Below, one piece after another: positions 1-6,086 of a stretch of 6,086 nucleotides of DNA. Every line of letters begins with the position of its first letter. Position 1 is the first letter of the stretch. The translations under genes and the position numbers were made by a program. Origin of the DNA: a virus (lineage: Duplodnaviria; Heunggongvirae; Uroviricota; Caudoviricetes); IMG/VR virus record IMGVR_UViG_2690316273_000023, positions 1 to 6,086 of that record. One strand, given 5' to 3'. The notes under the pieces are model-generated. The model did not search any database and had not been told where the DNA came from. It saw only the letters and a list, made by a program, of their open reading frames with translations.

Positions 1-474
1 ATGTACAGTCCGGTACAAATAGCCAATAAATTCATAACGTTGGGAAACCAACATCATAATCCTCTGACCCACATGCAACTTCAGAAGCTTACTTATATTG
101 CCCATGGTTACTATTTAGCATTAACAGGTAAGCCTTTGCTCAATGAATGTGTCTCCGCGTGGAAGTACGGTCCAGTTATTCCTGGAATGTACGATGCTTT
201 CAAAGACTATGGGAATAAACCTGTTACGAATGTAGCAGTAGCTCCTTTTGGTGGCATCGTTACTATGGATCCGCAAGCAGAGAGCATTATAGGGGCTGTT
301 TATAAGTTTTACGGCTCGAAAAATGGAATTGAGTTATCAACTCTAACTCATATGCCAGGTACGCCTTGGTCACAAGCTTATAATGGTATTGGCTCGTCGA
401 TCATCTCAAATGATGCGATCAAGGCTTATTATCATGATTTATTGAATAACCGACAGCAATGTCAGGGCCTCTGA
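1..474 (+). CDS. Panacea-domain (DUF4065) protein, PanA/SocA/GepA-like putative antitoxin
   Basis: 157-aa ORF from the ORF track. N-terminal half (YSPVQIANKFI...LTHMQLQKLTYIAHGYYLALTGKPLLNECVSAWKYGPVIPGMYDAF) matches my recollection of the conserved DUF4065/Panacea core (LQKLLY..G..L...G.PLF.E...AW.YGPV.P..Y). The ATG sits at window position 1, so RBS and promoter cannot be seen and the true start is unverified. GC visibly lower than the rest of the window. Confidence 0.72.
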   Translation: MYSPVQIANKFITLGNQHHNPLTHMQLQKLTYIAHGYYLALTGKPLLNECVSAWKYGPVIPGMYDAFKDYGNKPVTNVAVAPFGGIVTMDPQAESIIGAVYKFYGSKNGIELSTLTHMPGTPWSQAYNGIGSSIISNDAIKAYYHDLLNNRQQCQGL

Positions 475-496
475 AAAAGTAATATTCAGGGATGAC

Positions 497-1045
497 ATGT
501 CTCATAATTCAGATATCTATAAACTGATCGGAGCGGCCGCAGGTGTTGAAAATGGTCGCTCTGAAGCATCCTTAAACTCTACTGACAGTCAAGAGCAGGC
601 TTTTGAATCCGCATTTGAGCCGTCTAATCATGAGCGCGATGATGATTCTTCTTCAGAAAATAAGGCTATTCTGGAGGCAGAAGAGTTTGGTTCTAATACT
701 GGTGCATTGCATGAGTTTATGCAGCAGAACAGAATGGACAGTCTTCAAGCTCAGCTTGATATGCTCAAGTCACAAGTACGGGATAAGATAGCTGACGCAA
801 CTGGTAAAGAAATAGACAATGAGCTTCGGACAAAAATGGCCTCATTCACGGTTTGGTTTATGTCGTGTTGGTGCTTATTTGTAGCCGGAATGTTTGTATC
901 ATTTCTTATTGCTCATGAAGGAAAGCCGCCAGTTGAAGCAATCGTTGCATTACTGGGAACAAGTACAATTAGTATTGTTGGTTTGGTTGGCTTCGTTGTT
1001 AGTGGATTGTTCAAATCTAGAAAAGATGGCGATAAAGAAAAATAA
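497..1045 (+). CDS. Membrane protein with acidic N-terminal region and two C-terminal TM helices; candidate PanA-associated toxin/effector
   Basis: 182-aa ORF starting 22 bp after the upstream stop, with a purine-rich AGGGA 4-5 nt before the ATG. N-terminal ~110 aa are acidic, Ser/Glu-rich and low-complexity with a short predicted coiled segment (QQNRMDSLQAQLDMLKSQVRDKI). The C-terminus has two hydrophobic stretches (FTVWFMSCWCLFVAGMFVSFLIA and AIVALLGTSTISIVGLVGFVVSGLF) and a basic tail (KSRKDGDKEK). No family recognised with certainty; DUF2335-like is possible. Confidence 0.6.
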   Translation: MSHNSDIYKLIGAAAGVENGRSEASLNSTDSQEQAFESAFEPSNHERDDDSSSENKAILEAEEFGSNTGALHEFMQQNRMDSLQAQLDMLKSQVRDKIADATGKEIDNELRTKMASFTVWFMSCWCLFVAGMFVSFLIAHEGKPPVEAIVALLGTSTISIVGLVGFVVSGLFKSRKDGDKEK

Positions 1046-1066
1046 CCCGTATATACACGGGTTATT
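1031..1066 (-). terminator. Intrinsic terminator at the end of the minus-strand operon, possibly bidirectional
   Basis: Perfect 10-bp inverted repeat aataacccgt (1041-1050) / acgggttatt (1057-1066) with a 6-nt loop. On the minus-strand transcript it is followed immediately by UUUCUUUAUC (complement of 1031-1040) and lies 13 nt downstream of the stop of the 1079-1351 gene. The plus-strand stop TAA (1043-1045) lies inside the left arm; on the plus strand the T-rich stretch only begins ~20 nt after the stem. Confidence 0.6.
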
Positions 1067-1078
1067 CATGGTCTTAGT

Positions 1079-1351
1079 TTAGTTATATTTTTGTTTATCC
1101 GTTCTGACCTTTTCCCACTCAGCTCGTCCTTCTTCTCGTCTTTTGTCTATGTATTCCGCAAGATCCTGAATATTGATGCAACGTTTTGCTTTTTGTGATG
1201 TGCCGATGCGATATGTTGGAACGGGCAACTTACAAGCGTTTGCTTTTGCTTCTGCCGTGGCTGGACTCATGCCAAAGTACTTTTGGCTAACTGCTGAGAG
1301 TTCAATGTTAGGGGTATTGAATTCAGCCATCAGTAAAAACAAGGTGTTCAT
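1079..1351 (-). CDS. PrtN-family / excisionase-like small DNA-binding protein
   Basis: The ORF-track start at 1378 is a GTG with no SD. The internal ATG at 1351 is preceded by GGAG with a 6-nt spacer and gives a 90-aa protein MNTLFLLMAEF...QDLAEYIDKRR, which matches my recollection of the PrtN / excisionase-like family. It is the last gene of the operon, followed by the terminator. Confidence 0.6.
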   Translation of the reverse strand: MNTLFLLMAEFNTPNIELSAVSQKYFGMSPATAEAKANACKLPVPTYRIGTSQKAKRCINIQDLAEYIDKRREEGRAEWEKVRTDKQKYN

Positions 1352-1387
1352 AATTTTCTCCATCAAAACCGGCTGCACCCGGAAAAA

Positions 1388-1960
1388 TCATAATTCTGTG
1401 CTGGTGGCAGGAATTAATTTCTGCCAGATAGCTGAAACATATTTTGCCTGATGACGAGCATCAGCCAGGGCGTTGTGCCGTTCGCCATCGAAAGGCATGT
1501 CCATTTTGGGGTCGAATCCGATGGAACGCCCAAGCGTAACGATCGTGCGTACATCGTGATCATTCCAGTACGCCCATGGGCAGATTTGTCCTGCTCGTTC
1601 ATAAGCTCCGCGTAAAATTACGTTGTCGAAGGTGGCCCCGTTACCCCAAACTTTTAAATATTTCGTATTGCCTGCGTGCCGATTAATGAAATGGCTCAGT
1701 TCAGAGAGTGCATCGCTGATCGACAAAGTATCATCAATACAGATTGCAGCTCGTGCTTCAGGGCTTTGTTTCAACCACCACAGGATGGTATCGCCGTCAG
1801 GTGTGGCCCCTTGCTCCATAGCACTGTCCAGGCTGACAACCGTATAGAATGCTTGTCCGATGTCTCCGGTTTCTGGAGTGAAGAACACCGCGCCAATGGA
1901 AACGAACGGTGCATCCTTATTTTTCCCCATCGTCTCAAGGTCGATCATTAAGTTGTTCAT
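1388..1960 (-). CDS. DEDDh-type 3'-5' exonuclease (DnaQ-like fold, phage Rv2179c-like exonuclease family)
   Basis: Motifs read directly from the translation: Exo I (MIDLETMG), Exo II (WGNGATFDNVIL) and Exo III (HNALADARHQAKY, H-x4-D). ATG at 1960 preceded by GAGGTG; the ORF-track start at 1963 is a GTG. Start overlaps the upstream gene's stop as TGATG. Confidence 0.8.
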   Translation of the reverse strand: MNNLMIDLETMGKNKDAPFVSIGAVFFTPETGDIGQAFYTVVSLDSAMEQGATPDGDTILWWLKQSPEARAAICIDDTLSISDALSELSHFINRHAGNTKYLKVWGNGATFDNVILRGAYERAGQICPWAYWNDHDVRTIVTLGRSIGFDPKMDMPFDGERHNALADARHQAKYVSAIWQKLIPATSTEL

Positions 1961-2586
1961 CACTTCACCTCATGCGGCGGTTCCGGTAGCGGCATCCAGT
2001 GTGATGGTATCCACGACGCACCAGGTATTACCCACCCATCATTAGCGTCAGGATGCCCCGGGATGTAAGTCGCCCATTTCATTCGCCAGTCACCTTTCCT
2101 GTCAAACTCCCTGGCAACAAGAACGGCTGTTTTGCTATCCGGCATTCGCTCACTACAGCTTATCCAACCGCCCGGAATTACCGGAGAGTTGCCATTTACA
2201 TCGAAGTTTGGCTCTGCGTCCTGAACTAGGAGGATGTAACCATTCTTGGCTGTATCAAGTTCTAACGCCTCGGTGACGGTACCGAAATAGCGATTACCTA
2301 AATCAGCATCACAAGTGCTTACATCAATGGAAACTTCCATCCCTTCGATTAATTCTGGCAAGTTGTAAGTTTGGCTTACAGGCTCTGCTTCCAGTGATGC
2401 CAGTGCAATTCGTGCCAGCTCACGCACAACTTCAGGGGGCGCGTAACGGTCATTCAGGTCATCCCACAGGCGTAGCATGTTATCGCTACCAGGGTGAACA
2501 TCCTCGTTAGTTCCGGCAAGCGCACTAATAACCTCATCGGCTGCTTCAATAATTTTCTGTGCCTGTTCTCTGGTAATAGTGGTCAT
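1960..2586 (-). CDS. DUF551-domain phage protein
   Basis: 208-aa ORF. C-terminal region (GGWISCSERMPDSKTAVLV...GWVIPGASWIPSHWMPLPEPP) carries the W-rich signature ending in WMPLPEPP that I recall for DUF551. N-terminal MTTITREQ...ELARIALASLEAEP module is shared with the 2796-3191 gene. Confidence 0.72.
   Translation of the reverse strand: MTTITREQAQKIIEAADEVISALAGTNEDVHPGSDNMLRLWDDLNDRYAPPEVVRELARIALASLEAEPVSQTYNLPELIEGMEVSIDVSTCDADLGNRYFGTVTEALELDTAKNGYILLVQDAEPNFDVNGNSPVIPGGWISCSERMPDSKTAVLVAREFDRKGDWRMKWATYIPGHPDANDGWVIPGASWIPSHWMPLPEPPHEVK
2389..2428. repeat. Dispersed direct repeat, copy 1 (encodes the ELARIALASLE motif)
   Basis: ttccagtgatgccagtgcaattcgtgccagctc at ~2391-2423 matches ttccagcgatgccagagcaattcgtgccagttc at ~3059-3091, 30 of 33 positions identical. 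Both copies lie in the same frame of adjacent minus-strand genes. Confidence 0.7.
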
Positions 2587-2596
2587 TTGTTATGCC

Positions 2597-2794
2597 TCAA
2601 TACACGAAATCTGTTTTAAATTCATGGTTACATTCTGGACAGCATGTTTCGTAACCTTTTATTTCTTCACATGCCTGTTTAGCTCCAGAAAACTCCCAGA
2701 AATCAGCGTCACAAAGCAGATCGAAATTGTGACCGCATTTTGGGCATTCGGTATCAAGTGACAGATTCCAGTAAGCAGTGGTGTTTTTATCCAT
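2597..2794 (-). CDS. Small zinc-ribbon protein (CxxC...CCxxC)
   Basis: 65-aa product MDKNTTAYWNLSLDTECPKCGH...ETCCPECNHEFKTDFVY with two Cys pairs. ATG at 2794 is preceded by AAGGAG with a 6-nt spacer, and the upstream gene's stop is at 2796-2798; the ORF-track start at 2827 lacks an SD and would overlap the upstream gene. Confidence 0.55.
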   Translation of the reverse strand: MDKNTTAYWNLSLDTECPKCGHNFDLLCDADFWEFSGAKQACEEIKGYETCCPECNHEFKTDFVY

Positions 2795-2795
2795 A

Positions 2796-3191
2796 TCAGT
2801 CTCCTTTCCCCTGAAGCATAGCGGCACGGCAGGCGTTCCAGCCTCTCACCTCTGCAATAGCGGCAACAGCATCAACCGCGTACATACTAAGAGGATTAGG
2901 CATTGGTTTTTCTTCCGGTACTACTTGCGCTGGAGGGGCGGCGTAAATGCCCTCTATCACTAAATGTTTGCGCTCAAAATCATCTGGCTCTCGATGATAT
3001 ACGTAACTCCAATCACCAAGGTTATCATTGCGCCTGCAACGGAAACCTATCGGCTCGACTTCCAGCGATGCCAGAGCAATTCGTGCCAGTTCTTCCGCTT
3101 CTTCTGCTGGCAGTACAACGTTGCTACCCGGTCCGTATGTTTCGCGCCACTGCTTGATTGTCAGCAGTCGCTCTTTGGTAATAGTGGTCAT
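2796..3191 (-). CDS. Hypothetical phage protein sharing an N-terminal module with the DUF551 protein
   Basis: 131-aa ORF MTTITKERLL...EELARIALASLEVEP...; AAGGTG 8 nt upstream of the ATG. The shared N-terminus is visible at the DNA level (see repeat features). C-terminal part unrecognised. Confidence 0.6.
   Translation of the reverse strand: MTTITKERLLTIKQWRETYGPGSNVVLPAEEAEELARIALASLEVEPIGFRCRRNDNLGDWSYVYHREPDDFERKHLVIEGIYAAPPAQVVPEEKPMPNPLSMYAVDAVAAIAEVRGWNACRAAMLQGKGD
3055..3097. repeat. Dispersed direct repeat, copy 2 (encodes the ELARIALASLE motif)
   Basis: Partner of the 2389-2428 copy. A second shared block covers the two start regions: ctggtaatagtggtcat at 2570-2586 and ttggtaatagtggtcat at 3175-3191. 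Confidence 0.7.
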
Positions 3192-3193
3192 AG

Positions 3194-3385
3194 CTATTTC
3201 ACCTTAATCTCAACATTTCGCAGCTTTAGCTCTACTGGCAGGTCTGACTTTCCGGTTAATGCTAATGCGAGATTTTCTGGAGTAATGAGAGCAGTTATTG
3301 TTTTCCCCCTCGCCAGACGAATAATCATTCGTATCTCGCAATCGTCACATGCTCCCGGTCGAACAATTGAGATTTGTCCGTTCAT
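3194..3385 (-). CDS. Small hypothetical phage protein (63 aa)
   Basis: Internal ATG at 3385 (MNGQISIVRPGACDDCEIRMIIRLARGK...) is preceded by AAGGAG and lies 1 nt after the upstream gene's TGA (3387-3389). The longer ORF-track version (3194..3547) would overlap the upstream Ea22-like gene by ~160 nt and is rejected. Confidence 0.5.
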   Translation of the reverse strand: MNGQISIVRPGACDDCEIRMIIRLARGKTITALITPENLALALTGKSDLPVELKLRNVEIKVK

Positions 3386-3386
3386 C

Positions 3387-4094
3387 TCACTCTCCTTTGA
3401 TGCGAATGCCAGCGGCGCGCTCGGCTTCACTTTGTTCCCAAAACCACTTGTGAAGCGCCATAAGCTTTTCGTCAATCGGTGCATATTTGCGATTAAAGTA
3501 GGCCTGAGCATCTTTCTCAGATTCGTCCGGTAATTCGCCAGGGCCAAACAGTGTGTTATAAATCCATGCTAGTCCGCTCTTAGCGTCGCCAGTTGCCTGC
3601 CATTCGATAATGGCAGCCTGCATGACCAGAATGTTTTTCCCGATTAATAGGTCCAGTTCTTTGTACCGGTTGCGGATGTATGCATTCTCGCTTTGTAATT
3701 TTGCGTTGCGCTTTTCTGAGGCTTCAAGTAACGCCTGCTTATCGCGTAGCGCTTCTTCCAGTTCAGCAACATGGCACTCACTATCAATAAGGTTGTTCTC
3801 TGCGGCTTCCAGCTCAACACGCAGCTTCCCTACCGTTAGCGCAATATCCTCGTTCTCCTGGTCACGGCTTTTGATGTATTGCTGGTTTCTTTCCCGTTCA
3901 TCCAGTAGTGCCAGCACGGTTTCTGGTCCGGCCAGAAATTTGAAGGCGTTGAGCGCATCAATATCCACACCGTAATCTTTAAGTTCCTGTTCACTTAACA
4001 AATCATCATCAGCTGGCAACATTAACAGGCGTTCCATTGCTGGAATTGCACGTTCCGCCGCCTCACGCAGTGCCTGATAGTCAATCTTGCTCAC
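3387..4094 (-). CDS. Ead/Ea22-like coiled-coil protein
   Basis: 235-aa ORF MSKIDYQALREAAERAIPAMERLL... with a long heptad-like Glu/Leu/Ala-rich central region (ELEAAENNL...ELEEALRDKQALLEASEKRNAKLQSENAYIRNRYKELD). Matches my recollection of Ea22-like proteins of lambdoid prophages. Start overlaps the upstream stop as ATGA. Confidence 0.68.
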   Translation of the reverse strand: MSKIDYQALREAAERAIPAMERLLMLPADDDLLSEQELKDYGVDIDALNAFKFLAGPETVLALLDERERNQQYIKSRDQENEDIALTVGKLRVELEAAENNLIDSECHVAELEEALRDKQALLEASEKRNAKLQSENAYIRNRYKELDLLIGKNILVMQAAIIEWQATGDAKSGLAWIYNTLFGPGELPDESEKDAQAYFNRKYAPIDEKLMALHKWFWEQSEAERAAGIRIKGE

Positions 4095-4780
4095 TGGTTG
4101 CCTCCTTTTCGAAGCTGGGCGGCGATATCTTCGAGAACGCCATCAGAGAATGAGCGGTCAAAATCGCCTTCCGGCGCATTAGCCATAAACTCAGTAGAGG
4201 TAAGAATCATCCGGGCAATATCCGCGGCGTTCTTCGCAGTATCATCAATAAAACCAGCTTCCCAGGCAGCCAGCATTCTGTTCGCCACAAAATAAGCGCC
4301 TTCCTTGCGTGCTTCAGTCTTCACTTCAGCCAGAAAAGCATCGGTGGCTGGGGTGTCGATATTAGGCAGAAGCGCATAATCGCAAATCGTATCGATCGCA
4401 GGATCACAACAGTCATCCTCGTTGCGTGGTCGTTCGCCAACCTTCGTTGACGATTGCATGATGATTCCCCAGCAAATACTATCGACCTCTTCGCTCCATC
4501 CATCGCAAGCATCACCGCGATAGTCGTCAATTGCAGCCTCAGCCGATTCGATAGCTTCCTCAGCAGTTTTGTGCCATTCGAAATTATGCTCAGAGCCATA
4601 TGAGAAATATGAATGTCCCGCCTTCAGCCCCGCATTCTCCGCCGCCAGCGCCGCGCACTTGGCCTCCGCTTCAGCAAATTTACGCACCAGATATTCAGCA
4701 TTTGTTTCGTTCACTTTCAGATCTCGCGGTACACATTTCCCGCGAAGAAACCCTTCCATTTCGAAAACATTCATGCGCAT
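4091..4780 (-). CDS. Ead/Ea22-like family protein (second, divergent copy)
   Basis: 229-aa ORF with N-terminal coiled-coil segment (NAEYLVRKFAEAEAKCAALAAENAGLK) followed by an acidic, Cys/Trp-containing domain. GGAG 8 nt upstream of the ATG at 4780. Family call is from recall and only moderate. Confidence 0.55.
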   Translation of the reverse strand: MRMNVFEMEGFLRGKCVPRDLKVNETNAEYLVRKFAEAEAKCAALAAENAGLKAGHSYFSYGSEHNFEWHKTAEEAIESAEAAIDDYRGDACDGWSEEVDSICWGIIMQSSTKVGERPRNEDDCCDPAIDTICDYALLPNIDTPATDAFLAEVKTEARKEGAYFVANRMLAAWEAGFIDDTAKNAADIARMILTSTEFMANAPEGDFDRSFSDGVLEDIAAQLRKGGNQ

Positions 4781-5307
4781 TTGCGTAACTCCGATAACTC
4801 GTTAAAACGTTCCATAAACATCCCGTAGGCATGGCCTGGTGACAGTGGAATAACTTTGAACATCTCTGTTGCCGGGATGCCTTCCAGTACAGGCCAGAAA
4901 GAGCCATCATCAAGCCCGAGATCGCGGCGTTCGGTTGCCAGCATGATGAGATCGGCATATTTCACTGGCGTGCTCATAACAGGAGGTAACCCGTATTTCT
5001 CACGGATTACGGCGTCTATTTTTTCTTCCATCCGTTTATAGTCAGGAAGAAGTCGTTTCAGTGGCGCGGGGATGTCCTGGCAATATGCTTCTGTTGCATC
5101 ATGCATTAACGCTTCAAAAGCAAATTCCTGCGGCACCAGCTGGCTGCAAAGCACCGCATGCTGGGCGACACTGTAGAAGTGTGAAAGATGTCCTGCAAAG
5201 CGACAGATATTTGAAAGGGAAACTGCGATATCGTTAATCACGATGTCGTCTTTATTTATCTTGTCATAATAAAAATGCTTCCCGGAAAAAGTTTTAATAA
5301 ATGACAT
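4771..5307 (-). CDS. yfdR: HD-domain phosphohydrolase, YfdR-like (5'-deoxynucleotidase family)
   Basis: His...His-Asp metal-binding signature read from the translation (HLSHFYSVAQHAVLCS ... ALMHDATEAY). Internal ATG at 5307 (MSFIKTF...) is preceded by GGAG with a 6-nt spacer and gives 178 aa, which I recall is the length of E. coli K-12 CPS-53 YfdR. The ORF-track start at 5319 is a GTG lacking an SD. Confidence 0.78.
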   Translation of the reverse strand: MSFIKTFSGKHFYYDKINKDDIVINDIAVSLSNICRFAGHLSHFYSVAQHAVLCSQLVPQEFAFEALMHDATEAYCQDIPAPLKRLLPDYKRMEEKIDAVIREKYGLPPVMSTPVKYADLIMLATERRDLGLDDGSFWPVLEGIPATEMFKVIPLSPGHAYGMFMERFNELSELRKCA

Positions 5308-5401
5308 TTCGTTCTCCACTTTATATGCGCTGCACCGCGCTGAATTCTGCTAAAAGGAAGCTCTCACCATCCGGTGATTATTGAGTTAATTACGTTTCCA
5401 T

Positions 5402-5423
5402 AAATGCCCCCGCAGGGGCATTT
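5402..5423 (-). promoter_or_regulatory. GC-rich stem-loop in the yfdQ-like/yfdR-like intergenic region
   Basis: aaatgcccc (5402-5410) / cgca loop / ggggcattt (5415-5423): 9-bp perfect stem with a tetraloop, 13 nt downstream of the yfdQ-like stop on the minus strand. No U-tract follows on either strand. Confidence 0.4.
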
Positions 5424-5435
5424 GCAGTAATGAAA

Positions 5436-6086
5436 TCAGGCGGTGAAAGTACCAATAAAGGTTTCTACTTTGCTGTCTTTGAATTTCTCAACAAGCAGAT
5501 CACGAAATTCGTTAGCCATTTCTTCCTGCATCGCTTCCAGCTGAATAATGCGCAGAACCAGTACAGGACGATCGCCAGTGATAATTCTGAGGCGTAATTT
5601 AAACGGACGTTCTTTCAGGCCTTCAAACGGAACGCATTTAAATTCAAATGCCACTGGCATAATGTCTTTGGTTTTCGCTTCGACAGACTCCATCAGGGAG
5701 CGTTTGCCGCTGAAGTCATTGTCTTCAAAATCAGCGGTCTGGTTTGCTTCAATTGTGATTTTACGGACTGCAGCAGCCGCTTTGGTTGCCTGAATGGTGT
5801 CACCATTAGCATCAAAGCCCACAAGGTAGTCGGCCCAGTCTTCAATCCATTCTGCCAGTGACTTCTGGGAGTTACGCTCGCCATTAACAGACAACAGAGC
5901 AGAAAACGGTGCTGTCTTTTTCAGTTTGAGGGTGGCGGTGTTATCTGCGTGACCTGGTTCATCAATAGTACCCAGGTTAAGCACACTGACGGCTCGCATA
6001 TTATCGGCATCGATAAAGCAGCGGGTGCCTTCATCTGCAAGATCTTTAGAATAACGGGTAAAGTCATCGATGCTGGCAGTGGAAAG
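5436..6086 (-). CDS. yfdQ: DUF2303-family protein, YfdQ-like; partial, 5' end lies beyond the right window edge
   Basis: I translated the minus-strand frame upstream of the ORF-track Met at 5999 and it stays open to position 6086 (...[35 protein letters not shown]...), so the gene is truncated by the window. The position immediately upstream of the yfdR-like gene matches the yfdQ-yfdR order I recall for CPS-53. Family assignment is by synteny and recall, not by a motif I can verify. Confidence 0.55.

What the first reader, a model, noticed from the sequence alone, without database searches (positions are those of the whole stretch)
1..1100. Compositional break and terminator mark the module as separately acquired cargo
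Spot counts show the 5' end of the window at roughly 35% GC, against roughly 55-60% inside the minus-strand operon (60-bp samples at 1-60 and 2401-2460; not a full computation). The boundary coincides with the hairpin terminator at 1031-1066, where the two transcription units converge. This suggests the module is a moron or boundary island rather than core phage sequence. No att site is visible, so I cannot tell whether it lies inside or just outside the prophage.
Basis: partly seen in the sequence, partly recalled or inferred. Interest (0 to 1): 0.45.

Follow-up and report, generated by a model that had tools for sequence, protein, structure and literature searches.

The report
PanAT toxin–antitoxin moron beside prophage att

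Summary
The spot counts are exact (1-60 = 35.0% GC, 2401-2460 = 58.3%) but unrepresentative. The module (1-1078) is 41.1% GC and the rest of the window 47.9%. The best single GC breakpoint is at 1445, not at the hairpin, because the adjacent core gene xis is equally AT-rich. The hairpin is real (1040-1067, about -14 kcal/mol) and lies where the two transcription units converge, but only its minus-strand side has a T-run.

The two plus-strand genes encode proteins 100% identical to WP_000287252.1 and WP_000019185.1. This is the E. coli STEC O31 PanA-PanT pair validated by Kurata et al. 2022, whose toxin depolarises and permeabilises the membrane.

In related genomes the cassette lies about 300 bp inside the prophage, next to the displaced 5' fragment of dusA and at the opposite end from int. 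It is also present in deposited phage genomes. In closely related prophages the same att-to-xis slot holds at least four alternative cargos, found in 79, 208, 358 and 49 E. coli genomes. PanAT homologues sit in other moron slots of unrelated prophages.

Verdict: a genuine moron-type cargo cassette inside the prophage. It is already known and of modest interest.

The parts
1..474 (+). panA: stand-alone Panacea (DUF4065) antitoxin, 157 aa
   Evidence: Pfam SocA_Panacea E = 5.9e-18, 66.3 bits against a cutoff of 25.7. Also matches phrog_1281. The translation is identical to L001 8001-8474, annotated WP_000287252.1. That accession is PanA(Esc. col.) in Table 1 of PMC8832971.
497..1045 (+). panT: membrane toxin, 182 aa, with a charged N-terminal region and two C-terminal hydrophobic helices (about aa 117-139 and 146-172, nt about 845-913 and 932-1012)
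   Evidence: The translation is identical to L001 8497-9045, annotated WP_000019185.1. That accession is PanT(Esc. col.), mode of action 'Membrane'. Kyte-Doolittle peaks give the two helices. phrog_13343 E = 5e-112. No Pfam hit above cutoff.
1040..1067 (.). Hairpin at the convergence point of panAT and the leftward early operon. It has a T-run only on the minus strand, and its stem core AACCCG/CGGGTT is shared by all cargo classes.
   Evidence: Scan hit on the minus strand: 12 pairs, tail TTCTTTATCG. dG -14.3 and -14.6 kcal/mol, z = -3.0 and -3.8. Alignments A1 and A4 show the invariant stem core.
1068..1101 (.). Right-hand junction of the variable cassette. Nucleotide homology to prophages with other cargos resumes here, at window 1076/1079, 1089/1090 or 1101 depending on the cargo class.
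   Evidence: Megablast query starts; alignments.
1079..1351 (-). xis: PrtN-family excisionase of the conserved backbone. It is not cargo, but it has the same low GC (42%).
   Evidence: Pfam PyocinActivator E = 3.9e-23. phrog_1300 'excisionase' E = 6e-40. Phage mEp460 gp25 is annotated as excisionase. Present in 767 of 5426 E. coli genomes. GC values.
1388..6086 (-). Context: the leftward early (pL-type) operon of the lambdoid prophage. It contains an Rv2179c-like 3'-5' exonuclease, DUF551 and Ea22-type mosaic genes, yfdR (5'-deoxynucleotidase) and yfdQ (DUF2303, cut by the window end).
   Evidence: The same gene order is seen in the phage records.

Best explanation
Window 1-1078 is the coding part and 3' hairpin of a self-contained PanA-PanT type II toxin-antitoxin cassette of about 1.3 kb. 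The cassette fills a variable cargo slot between the phage attachment site and the excisionase gene of a lambdoid, often Stx-converting, temperate phage that integrates into the 5' end of dusA.

Shown:
- Both proteins are identical to the experimentally validated E. coli STEC O31 pair.
- In related genomes the cassette lies inside the prophage, about 300 bp from the att junction, at the end opposite int.
- Closely related phages carry other cargos in the same slot.

From the literature, for the identical proteins: PanT expression shuts down transcription, translation and replication together. It does this by depolarising the inner membrane and forming large pores. Co-expressed PanA neutralises it.

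Inferred:
- The cassette is transcribed rightward from its own perfect sigma-70 promoter (TTGACA-16-TATAAT). In 99.9%-identical loci this lies about 160-185 bp upstream of window position 1.
- The displaced host dusA promoter may also read into the cassette.
- Transcription ends at the hairpin, which also ends the leftward xis operon and so insulates the two convergent units.
- The cassette is exchanged between phages by recombination in the conserved flanks (the att arm, and the hairpin with the xis 3' end).
- Its pay-off to the lysogen is probably abortive-infection defence against other phages or prophage addiction. Neither has been shown for this pair.
For: Identity of the proteins: Pfam Panacea hit; 100% protein identity to WP_000287252.1 and WP_000019185.1; those accessions are listed as a validated pair with mode of action 'Membrane' in PMC8832971, with DiSC3(5) and SYTOX Green data.

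Location: gene order in the related prophage is dusA - int - ... - stx2a - ... - cI/cro - yfdPQR - exo - xis - panT - panA - dusA 5' remnant. The phage-borne dusA 5' surrogate and the host remnant align up to the crossover. The cassette is present in the deposited phage genomes 1720a-02, phiSTEC1575-Stx2k and PhiR47_1, and the last annotates it as PanA/PanT. Phage 1720a-02 excises and lysogenises new hosts at dusA (PMC6328086 and bioRxiv 10.1101/2025.01.01.630987).

Variable slot: with sharp homology boundaries.

Promoter: a 12/12 match at L001 7816-7843.

Hairpin.

Mobility of the pair: PanA-PanT homologues are always adjacent and in the same order, but in different slots. These are an Enterobacter prophage end after the lysis genes, a Salmonella site next to DinI and tail fibre genes, a Providencia site between Q and an RM system plus holin, and a Serratia P2-like prophage between gpA and portal. 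Their GC stays at 40-44% against 51-58% flanks in the Enterobacter and Serratia loci; the Salmonella and Providencia flanks are themselves AT-rich.
Against: The window itself contains neither att, int nor the promoter. Location and promoter are inferred from loci that are 97-99.9% identical over 1-1100.

No complete E. coli genome or phage record covers 80% or more of the whole window, so the exact source prophage is not in hand.

The plus-strand side of the hairpin lacks a U-tract, so termination of panAT there is not established.

Composition does not single out the cassette, because xis and int are equally AT-rich.

No PADLOC model matches. No paper read here reports an anti-phage or stabilisation phenotype for this pair, and the pull-downs reported in PMC8832971 were for five other pairs.
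Confidence: 0.85

Rival explanations
1. The low GC belongs to the whole integration region (att arms, xis, int). These regions are AT-rich for functional reasons, such as binding and bending sites for recombination proteins. On this view PanAT is ancestral core sequence of this phage lineage and not an acquisition.
For: xis is 42% GC and statistically indistinguishable from the module. The best breakpoint is at 1445. In the related prophage the int region is also 43% GC or less, so int-attP-cargo-xis forms one low-GC block in the circular phage.
Against: Four different cargos occupy the slot on near-identical backbones, and PanAT is the minority state (79 of 767 genomes carrying xis). PanAT homologues occur in unrelated slots and phage types. 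The two explanations are not exclusive: composition alone cannot decide, but comparison does.
Confidence: 0.08
2. The module is a host genomic islet lying just outside the prophage, a boundary island, and is not part of the phage genome.
For: It is the outermost coding sequence at that end. The window shows no att site.
Against: The displaced dusA 5' fragment, which marks the att junction, lies about 300 bp beyond panA, so panAT is on the phage side. Three deposited phage genomes include it. In mEp460 the equivalent slot lies between int and xis on one contiguous phage genome. tblastn with PanT finds no plasmid and only these three phage records. All 30 listed E. coli hits have xis adjacent.
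Confidence: 0.03
3. The hairpin is primarily the terminator of the leftward early/xis operon and a backbone feature, not the cassette's own terminator. It therefore says nothing about the cargo being a separate unit.
For: The T-run is present only on the minus strand. The stem core AACCCG...CGGGTT is invariant across cargo classes A-D at the same position.
Against: In classes B, C and D the equivalent hairpin has a clear plus-strand T-run (GGGTTTTTT), so it can act bidirectionally there. The loop and flanks are specific to each class. A stable 3' hairpin can still define or stabilise the panAT mRNA 3' end.
Confidence: 0.45

Closest known systems
PanA-PanT(Esc. col.) of E. coli STEC O31 (Kurata et al. 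2022, PNAS 119:e2102212119; toxin WP_000019185.1, antitoxin WP_000287252.1)
   Same: Both proteins are identical over their full length. The gene order and 22-nt spacing are the same. The toxin has a charged N-terminal region and two C-terminal transmembrane helices.
   Different: Nothing differs at the protein level. In the passages read, the paper does not place the pair in a dusA-phage att-xis slot. That context is added here.
Morons of lambdoid phages (extra transcription units inserted between conserved genes; Hendrix/Juhala concept, from my own knowledge)
   Same: The unit is present or absent between conserved flanks. It has its own consensus promoter and a terminal hairpin. It is AT-rich relative to the phage as a whole (41% against 52.4% for the related prophage) and transcribed against the neighbouring phage operon.
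   Different: The immediately neighbouring core gene xis has the same composition. The plus-strand terminator lacks a U-tract. The slot is never seen empty in the loci sampled, only filled with alternatives, so it behaves more like a cassette-exchange hotspot than a one-off insertion.
dusA-associated integrase (DAI) prophages and islands (Farrugia et al. 2015, PMC4482086), e.g. phage mEp460 and Stx2dact phage 1720a-02 (PMC6328086)
   Same: Integration is about 100 bp into dusA, with a phage-supplied replacement 5' end. A tyrosine integrase lies next to the restored dusA. A PrtN-family gene is present; Farrugia et al. found one in 63.8% of such islands.
   Different: Those papers describe cargo as generally mosaic. 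In the passages read they do not single out the att-xis slot or its toxin-antitoxin content.
Defence and accessory hotspots of temperate phages, e.g. the P2 slot between the replication gene gpA and the portal gene (from my own knowledge)
   Same: A PanAT homologue in Serratia sits between gpA and portal of a P2-like prophage. Alternative toxin-type cargos replace each other at a fixed position.
   Different: No defence phenotype is known for this PanAT pair, and there is no PADLOC match.

Membership tests
PanAT (Panacea-antitoxin type II TA systems) | The antitoxin carries the Panacea/DUF4065 domain | tested here: met
   PF13274 E = 5.9e-18, 66.3 bits against a 25.7 cutoff, covering aa 27-123.
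PanAT (Panacea-antitoxin type II TA systems) | Conserved two-gene architecture with an adjacent putative toxin gene | tested here: met
   panA 1-474 and panT 497-1045 are on the same strand with a 22-nt gap. Adjacency and order are conserved in homologues at 49-67% identity in four other genera.
PanAT (Panacea-antitoxin type II TA systems) | The toxin inhibits growth and the cognate PanA rescues | not testable with these tools
   Reported for the identical proteins (Table 1 of PMC8832971; membrane depolarisation and SYTOX uptake). Sequence identity was verified here.
PanAT (Panacea-antitoxin type II TA systems) | Direct PanA:PanT complex (type II neutralisation) | not tested
   The pull-downs in PMC8832971 were for five other pairs. 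No complex prediction was run here.
Moron | Present in some and replaced or absent in otherwise closely related phages, between conserved flanks | tested here: met
   Four cargo classes on the same backbone with sharp homology breaks.
Moron | Own promoter | tested here: met
   TTGACA-16-TATAAT, 12/12, at L001 7816-7843, inside the cassette-specific DNA. This lies outside the window and was seen in loci 97-99.9% identical to it.
Moron | Own factor-independent terminator | tested here: inconclusive
   The hairpin is present, but there is no plus-strand T-run and the stem core is shared with the other cargo classes.
Moron | Nucleotide composition distinct from neighbouring phage genes | tested here: inconclusive
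   41.1% against 47.9% for the rest of the window and 52.4% for a related whole prophage. The adjacent xis is 42%, and the best break is at 1445.
dusA-integrating (DAI) prophage | Integration in the 5' end of dusA, with a phage-borne replacement 5' end and an adjacent tyrosine integrase | tested here: met
   Shown in related genomes only (L001, L012, mEp460). The window itself contains neither dusA nor int.
Intrinsic (Rho-independent) terminator | G+C-containing stem-loop immediately followed by a U-tract | tested here: met
   Met on the minus strand (stem 1067-1040, tail TTTTTCTTT). Not met on the plus strand.
Known anti-phage defence systems (PADLOC-DB v2) | Match to a defence-system protein model | tested here: not met
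   No hit at E <= 0.01 for PanA, PanT or any of the alternative cargo proteins.

The most novel reading that the evidence does not exclude
The att-to-xis slot of dusA-integrating lambdoid (including Stx) phages may be a dedicated exchange hotspot for toxin-type or defence cassettes. Two different Panacea pairs and a YafO pair occupy it. Its commonest occupant is a 177-aa protein with no Pfam, NCBIfam or PADLOC match and a PHROG family of unknown function, found in 358 complete E. coli genomes including O157:H7. That protein could then be an undescribed toxin or defence effector. All cargos point the same way as the orphaned host dusA promoter and 5' fragment, so the slot may also be wired for lysogen-specific expression from a host promoter.
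Probability: 0.3. Interest if true: 0.45.

Novelty: already known. Interest (0 to 1): 0.2.

Why it matters
The cassette is an experimentally characterised membrane-disrupting toxin-antitoxin pair, so the window adds no new biology at the gene level. What this work adds is context. The pair rides in transmissible, often Shiga-toxin-converting phages, immediately inside the att junction, in a slot where related phages carry other toxin-antitoxin-type cargo. That makes the slot a convenient place to look for further accessory or defence genes. It also gives a natural setting in which the unknown trigger and role of PanAT (phage defence or prophage addiction) could be tested. The case is also a methodological caution. 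Two 60-bp spot counts overstated a 7-point GC difference as 20-25 points, and composition placed the boundary in the wrong place. Comparison of related phages gave the right answer.

Tried and rejected
- A scan of one genome per species (genome contigs) with PanT peptide patterns gave 90 pattern matches but no tblastn-confirmed relative. This was uninformative, so I used the protein database and the look-up of encoding contigs instead.
- tblastn with PanT against plasmids found nothing.
- PADLOC had no model for PanA, PanT or any alternative cargo.
- Rfam found nothing in the window at gathering thresholds.
- A literature search for the paper behind the PhiR47_1/PhiR40_1 phage records (terms ECOR13, PanT) returned only irrelevant hits.
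- No paper in the library combines Panacea with dusA and Stx phages.
- The 'bully phage' preprint on 1720a-02 attributes its inter-prophage effect to Cro, not to this module.
- I considered whether the hairpin belongs purely to the cassette. I rejected this as unproven, because the stem core is invariant across cargo classes.
- I considered calling the GC break the cassette boundary. I rejected this because the likelihood peak is at 1445 and xis shares the composition.
- I did not verify that every genome counted for cargo classes B, C and D carries the cargo in this slot. The counts come from nucleotide matches to the cargo alone.
Full report
**1. What is in the window**

Two plus-strand ORFs (1-474 and 497-1045) converge on a long minus-strand operon (1079-6086).

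- ORF1 carries the Panacea/DUF4065 antitoxin domain (PF13274, E = 5.9e-18, above the curated cutoff).
- ORF2 has no Pfam family above cutoff. It has a charged N-terminal region and two hydrophobic helices at about aa 117-139 and 146-172, and it matches phrog_13343 end to end.
- The minus-strand genes, in order, are a PrtN-family excisionase (PF11112; phrog_1300 'excisionase'), an Rv2179c-like 3'-5' exonuclease, DUF551 and Ea22-type genes, yfdR (a 5'-deoxynucleotidase) and yfdQ (DUF2303). This is the early-left region of a lambdoid phage.

**2. Checking the observation**

They are tails of a wide distribution (60-bp windows: mean 46.7%, sd 6.8%).

Properly computed, the module (1-1078) is 41.1% GC and the rest of the window 47.9%. 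The 200-bp profile never exceeds 53% in the operon.

The shift is statistically real. The single-breakpoint log-likelihood ratio is 11.9, and 0 of 300 block shuffles reached it. Third-position GC is 32.2% in the module against 43.9% in the other genes (Fisher p = 1.1e-4), and 55.3% in host genes flanking a related prophage.

The best breakpoint, however, is at 1445. The ratio at 1078 is only 8.3. The reason is that the core gene xis is just as AT-rich: 42% GC, GC3s 37%, p = 0.44 against the module. In a related complete prophage the PanAT block is in the lowest 0.6% of 1078-bp windows. The other blocks at 43% GC or below include int on the far side of att and the cI/cro region. So composition marks an AT-rich int-att-cargo-xis neighbourhood, not the cargo itself.

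The hairpin is real, at 1040-1067, with dG about -14.3 and -14.6 kcal/mol (z = -3.0 and -3.8). It sits in the 33-nt gap between the two stop codons. Only the minus strand has a T-run after the stem.

**3. Identity of the module**

Window 1-1100 is 99.9% identical to E. coli STEC1588. There the two genes are annotated WP_000287252.1 (Panacea domain-containing protein) and WP_000019185.1 (hypothetical protein). The window translations are identical to those loci, and the single nucleotide difference is silent.

These two accessions are the 'Escherichia coli STEC O31 PanA(Esc. col.)-PanT(Esc. col.)' pair in Table 1 of Kurata et al. 2022 (PMC8832971). The listed mode of action is 'Membrane'. In that study, PanT(Esc. 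col.) expression inhibited transcription, translation and replication indiscriminately. It caused strong depolarisation (DiSC3(5)) and SYTOX Green uptake, interpreted as large-pore formation. The phage record PhiR47_1 (PV340566) already annotates the pair as PanA/PanT.

**4. Where the module sits**

In STEC1588 the gene order is: dusA (intact) - int - DinI - tail - head - lysis - stx2a - Q - replication - cro/cI - yfdPQR - exo - xis - panT - panA - 105-bp dusA 5' fragment - host genes.

The phage supplies a surrogate dusA 5' end next to int. This surrogate aligns with the displaced host fragment up to the crossover near ATGCTCGA|TAGG. That is the arrangement described for dusA-associated integrases (PMC4482086, which lists mEp460) and for the Stx2dact phage 1720a-02 (PMC6328086).

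panA therefore starts about 300 bp inside the prophage end, at the end opposite int. The cassette is present in the deposited phage genomes 1720a-02, phiSTEC1575-Stx2k and PhiR47_1. Phage 1720a-02 excises and lysogenises new E. coli at dusA.

**5. Is the slot variable?**

Yes. The xis-exo backbone is found in 767 of 5426 complete E. coli genomes. Between the conserved att arm and xis, these genomes and related phages carry one of at least four cargos:

| Class | Cargo | E. coli genomes | Examples |
|---|---|---|---|
| A | PanA157 + PanT182 | 79 | this window, 1720a-02, PhiR47_1 |
| B | a different 190-aa Panacea protein + 128-aa partner + 57-aa ORF | 208 | strain 2015C-4136CT1, OkiPb01684 |
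| C | 177-aa protein + the same 57-aa ORF | 358 | mEp460, O157:H7 |
| D | 179-aa protein + YafO-family toxin | 49 | PhiR40_1, AH21I008 |

Homology among all classes stops at ...CTATTGGGAACC on the att side. It resumes at the hairpin and xis 3' end. Megablast matches from the other classes begin at window 1076-1101.

Every cargo is 40-43% GC and is oriented like panAT.

The class A cassette-specific DNA contains a perfect TTGACA-16-TATAAT promoter about 160-185 bp upstream of the panA ATG. It is flanked by ACAGTG/CACTGT repeats.

Each class ends in a hairpin with the same stem core, AACCCG...CGGGTT. Classes B, C and D have a plus-strand T-run after it. The hairpin therefore sits on the junction and cannot be assigned to the cargo alone.

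**6. Mobility of the pair**

PanT relatives (68 clusters) are confined to Enterobacterales. In the four homologues examined, at 49-67% identity, a Panacea gene always lies immediately upstream. The surroundings differ:

- the end of an Enterobacter prophage, after the lysis genes;
- next to DinI and tail fibre genes in Salmonella;
- between antiterminator Q and an RM system plus holin in Providencia;
- between gpA and portal in a Serratia P2-like prophage.

Their GC stays at 40-44%, against 51-58% flanks in the Enterobacter and Serratia loci. The Salmonella and Providencia flanks are themselves AT-rich. So the two-gene unit travels as cargo between the accessory slots of temperate phages.

**7. 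Mechanism**

- Shown in the literature, for identical proteins: free PanT disrupts the inner membrane, and PanA neutralises it.
- Shown here: the cassette anatomy, its position, and the replaceability of the slot.
- Inferred: constitutive transcription in the lysogen from the cassette promoter, possibly with read-in from the orphaned host dusA promoter, since no plus-strand terminator is predicted in between.
- Inferred: insulation from the convergent xis operon by the hairpin.
- Inferred: exchange of cassettes by homologous recombination in the conserved flanks.
- Not established: the biological role, whether abortive-infection defence or prophage addiction. PADLOC has no match, and no phenotype for this pair was found in the papers read.

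**8. Verdict**

The AT-rich shift is real but modest, and the hairpin is real, but the two do not define the boundary together. The interpretation that this is moron-type cargo is supported by independent comparative evidence. The module itself is already known and experimentally characterised. The added value is its placement in a variable att-xis slot of dusA-integrating, often Stx-converting, phages. Interest is low to modest.

Noticed in passing
L009 2019-2922 (E. coli O157:H7 17B6-2); L004 3031-3934 (phage mEp460 gp23/gp24): The commonest occupant of the att-xis slot (358 complete E. coli genomes) is a 177-aa protein (phrog_4350) followed by a 57-aa ORF (phrog_2741). Neither has a Pfam, NCBIfam or PADLOC match. 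It is an uncharacterised occupant of a slot otherwise filled by toxin-antitoxin pairs.
   Followed up: partly
L007 1733-2934; L008 1721-2922: A second, different Panacea pair occupies the same slot in 208 genomes: a 190-aa PanA-like protein with a 128-aa partner (phrog_19071, no Pfam family), followed by the same 57-aa ORF as in class C. The cargos are therefore themselves mosaic.
   Followed up: partly
window 2597-2827 (-): A small Cys-rich (Zn-ribbon-like) ORF forms a low-GC island (39-42% GC, GC3s 31%) inside the early-left operon. It is compositionally as deviant as the PanAT module but has no promoter or terminator of its own.
   Followed up: no
window 1960-2586 (-) and 2796-3191 (-): Two ORFs share an N-terminal module (MTTIT...ELARIALASLE(A/V)EP) fused to different C-terminal parts; both match phrog_60. 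No complete E. coli genome or phage record covers 80% or more of the window, so this region is highly mosaic.
   Followed up: no
window 5402-5423: A strong hairpin, AAATGCCCC-CGCA-GGGGCATTT, lies in the low-GC gap between the yfdQ stop and the yfdR start. Neither strand has a T-run after it. It may be an intra-operon attenuator or an RNA processing site.
   Followed up: no
L001 7775-7806, 7893-7903, 7951-7959 (upstream of window position 1): Repeated ACAGTG/CACTGT motifs, including an 11-nt inverted repeat, flank the 12/12 promoter of the PanAT cassette. They look like operator sites, yet this PanA has no recognisable DNA-binding domain.
   Followed up: partly
L001 7592-7696 relative to 8001-9045: The orphaned host dusA 5' fragment, presumably with its promoter, points into the cargo slot. 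All four cargo classes share that orientation, and no plus-strand terminator is predicted in between. Host-promoter read-in that occurs only in the lysogen is therefore possible.
   Followed up: no
L012 7722-7862: The related Stx2a prophage also carries a Hok/Gef-family membrane toxin gene near its tail fibre genes. That is a second small membrane toxin in the same phage.
   Followed up: no
L011 1-3000 (E. coli Z1323CEC0019): In this genome the PanAT-xis end is not next to a dusA remnant. It abuts an IS3-family element and fragments of tsh and a peptide deformylase gene, so that prophage end has been rearranged.
   Followed up: no
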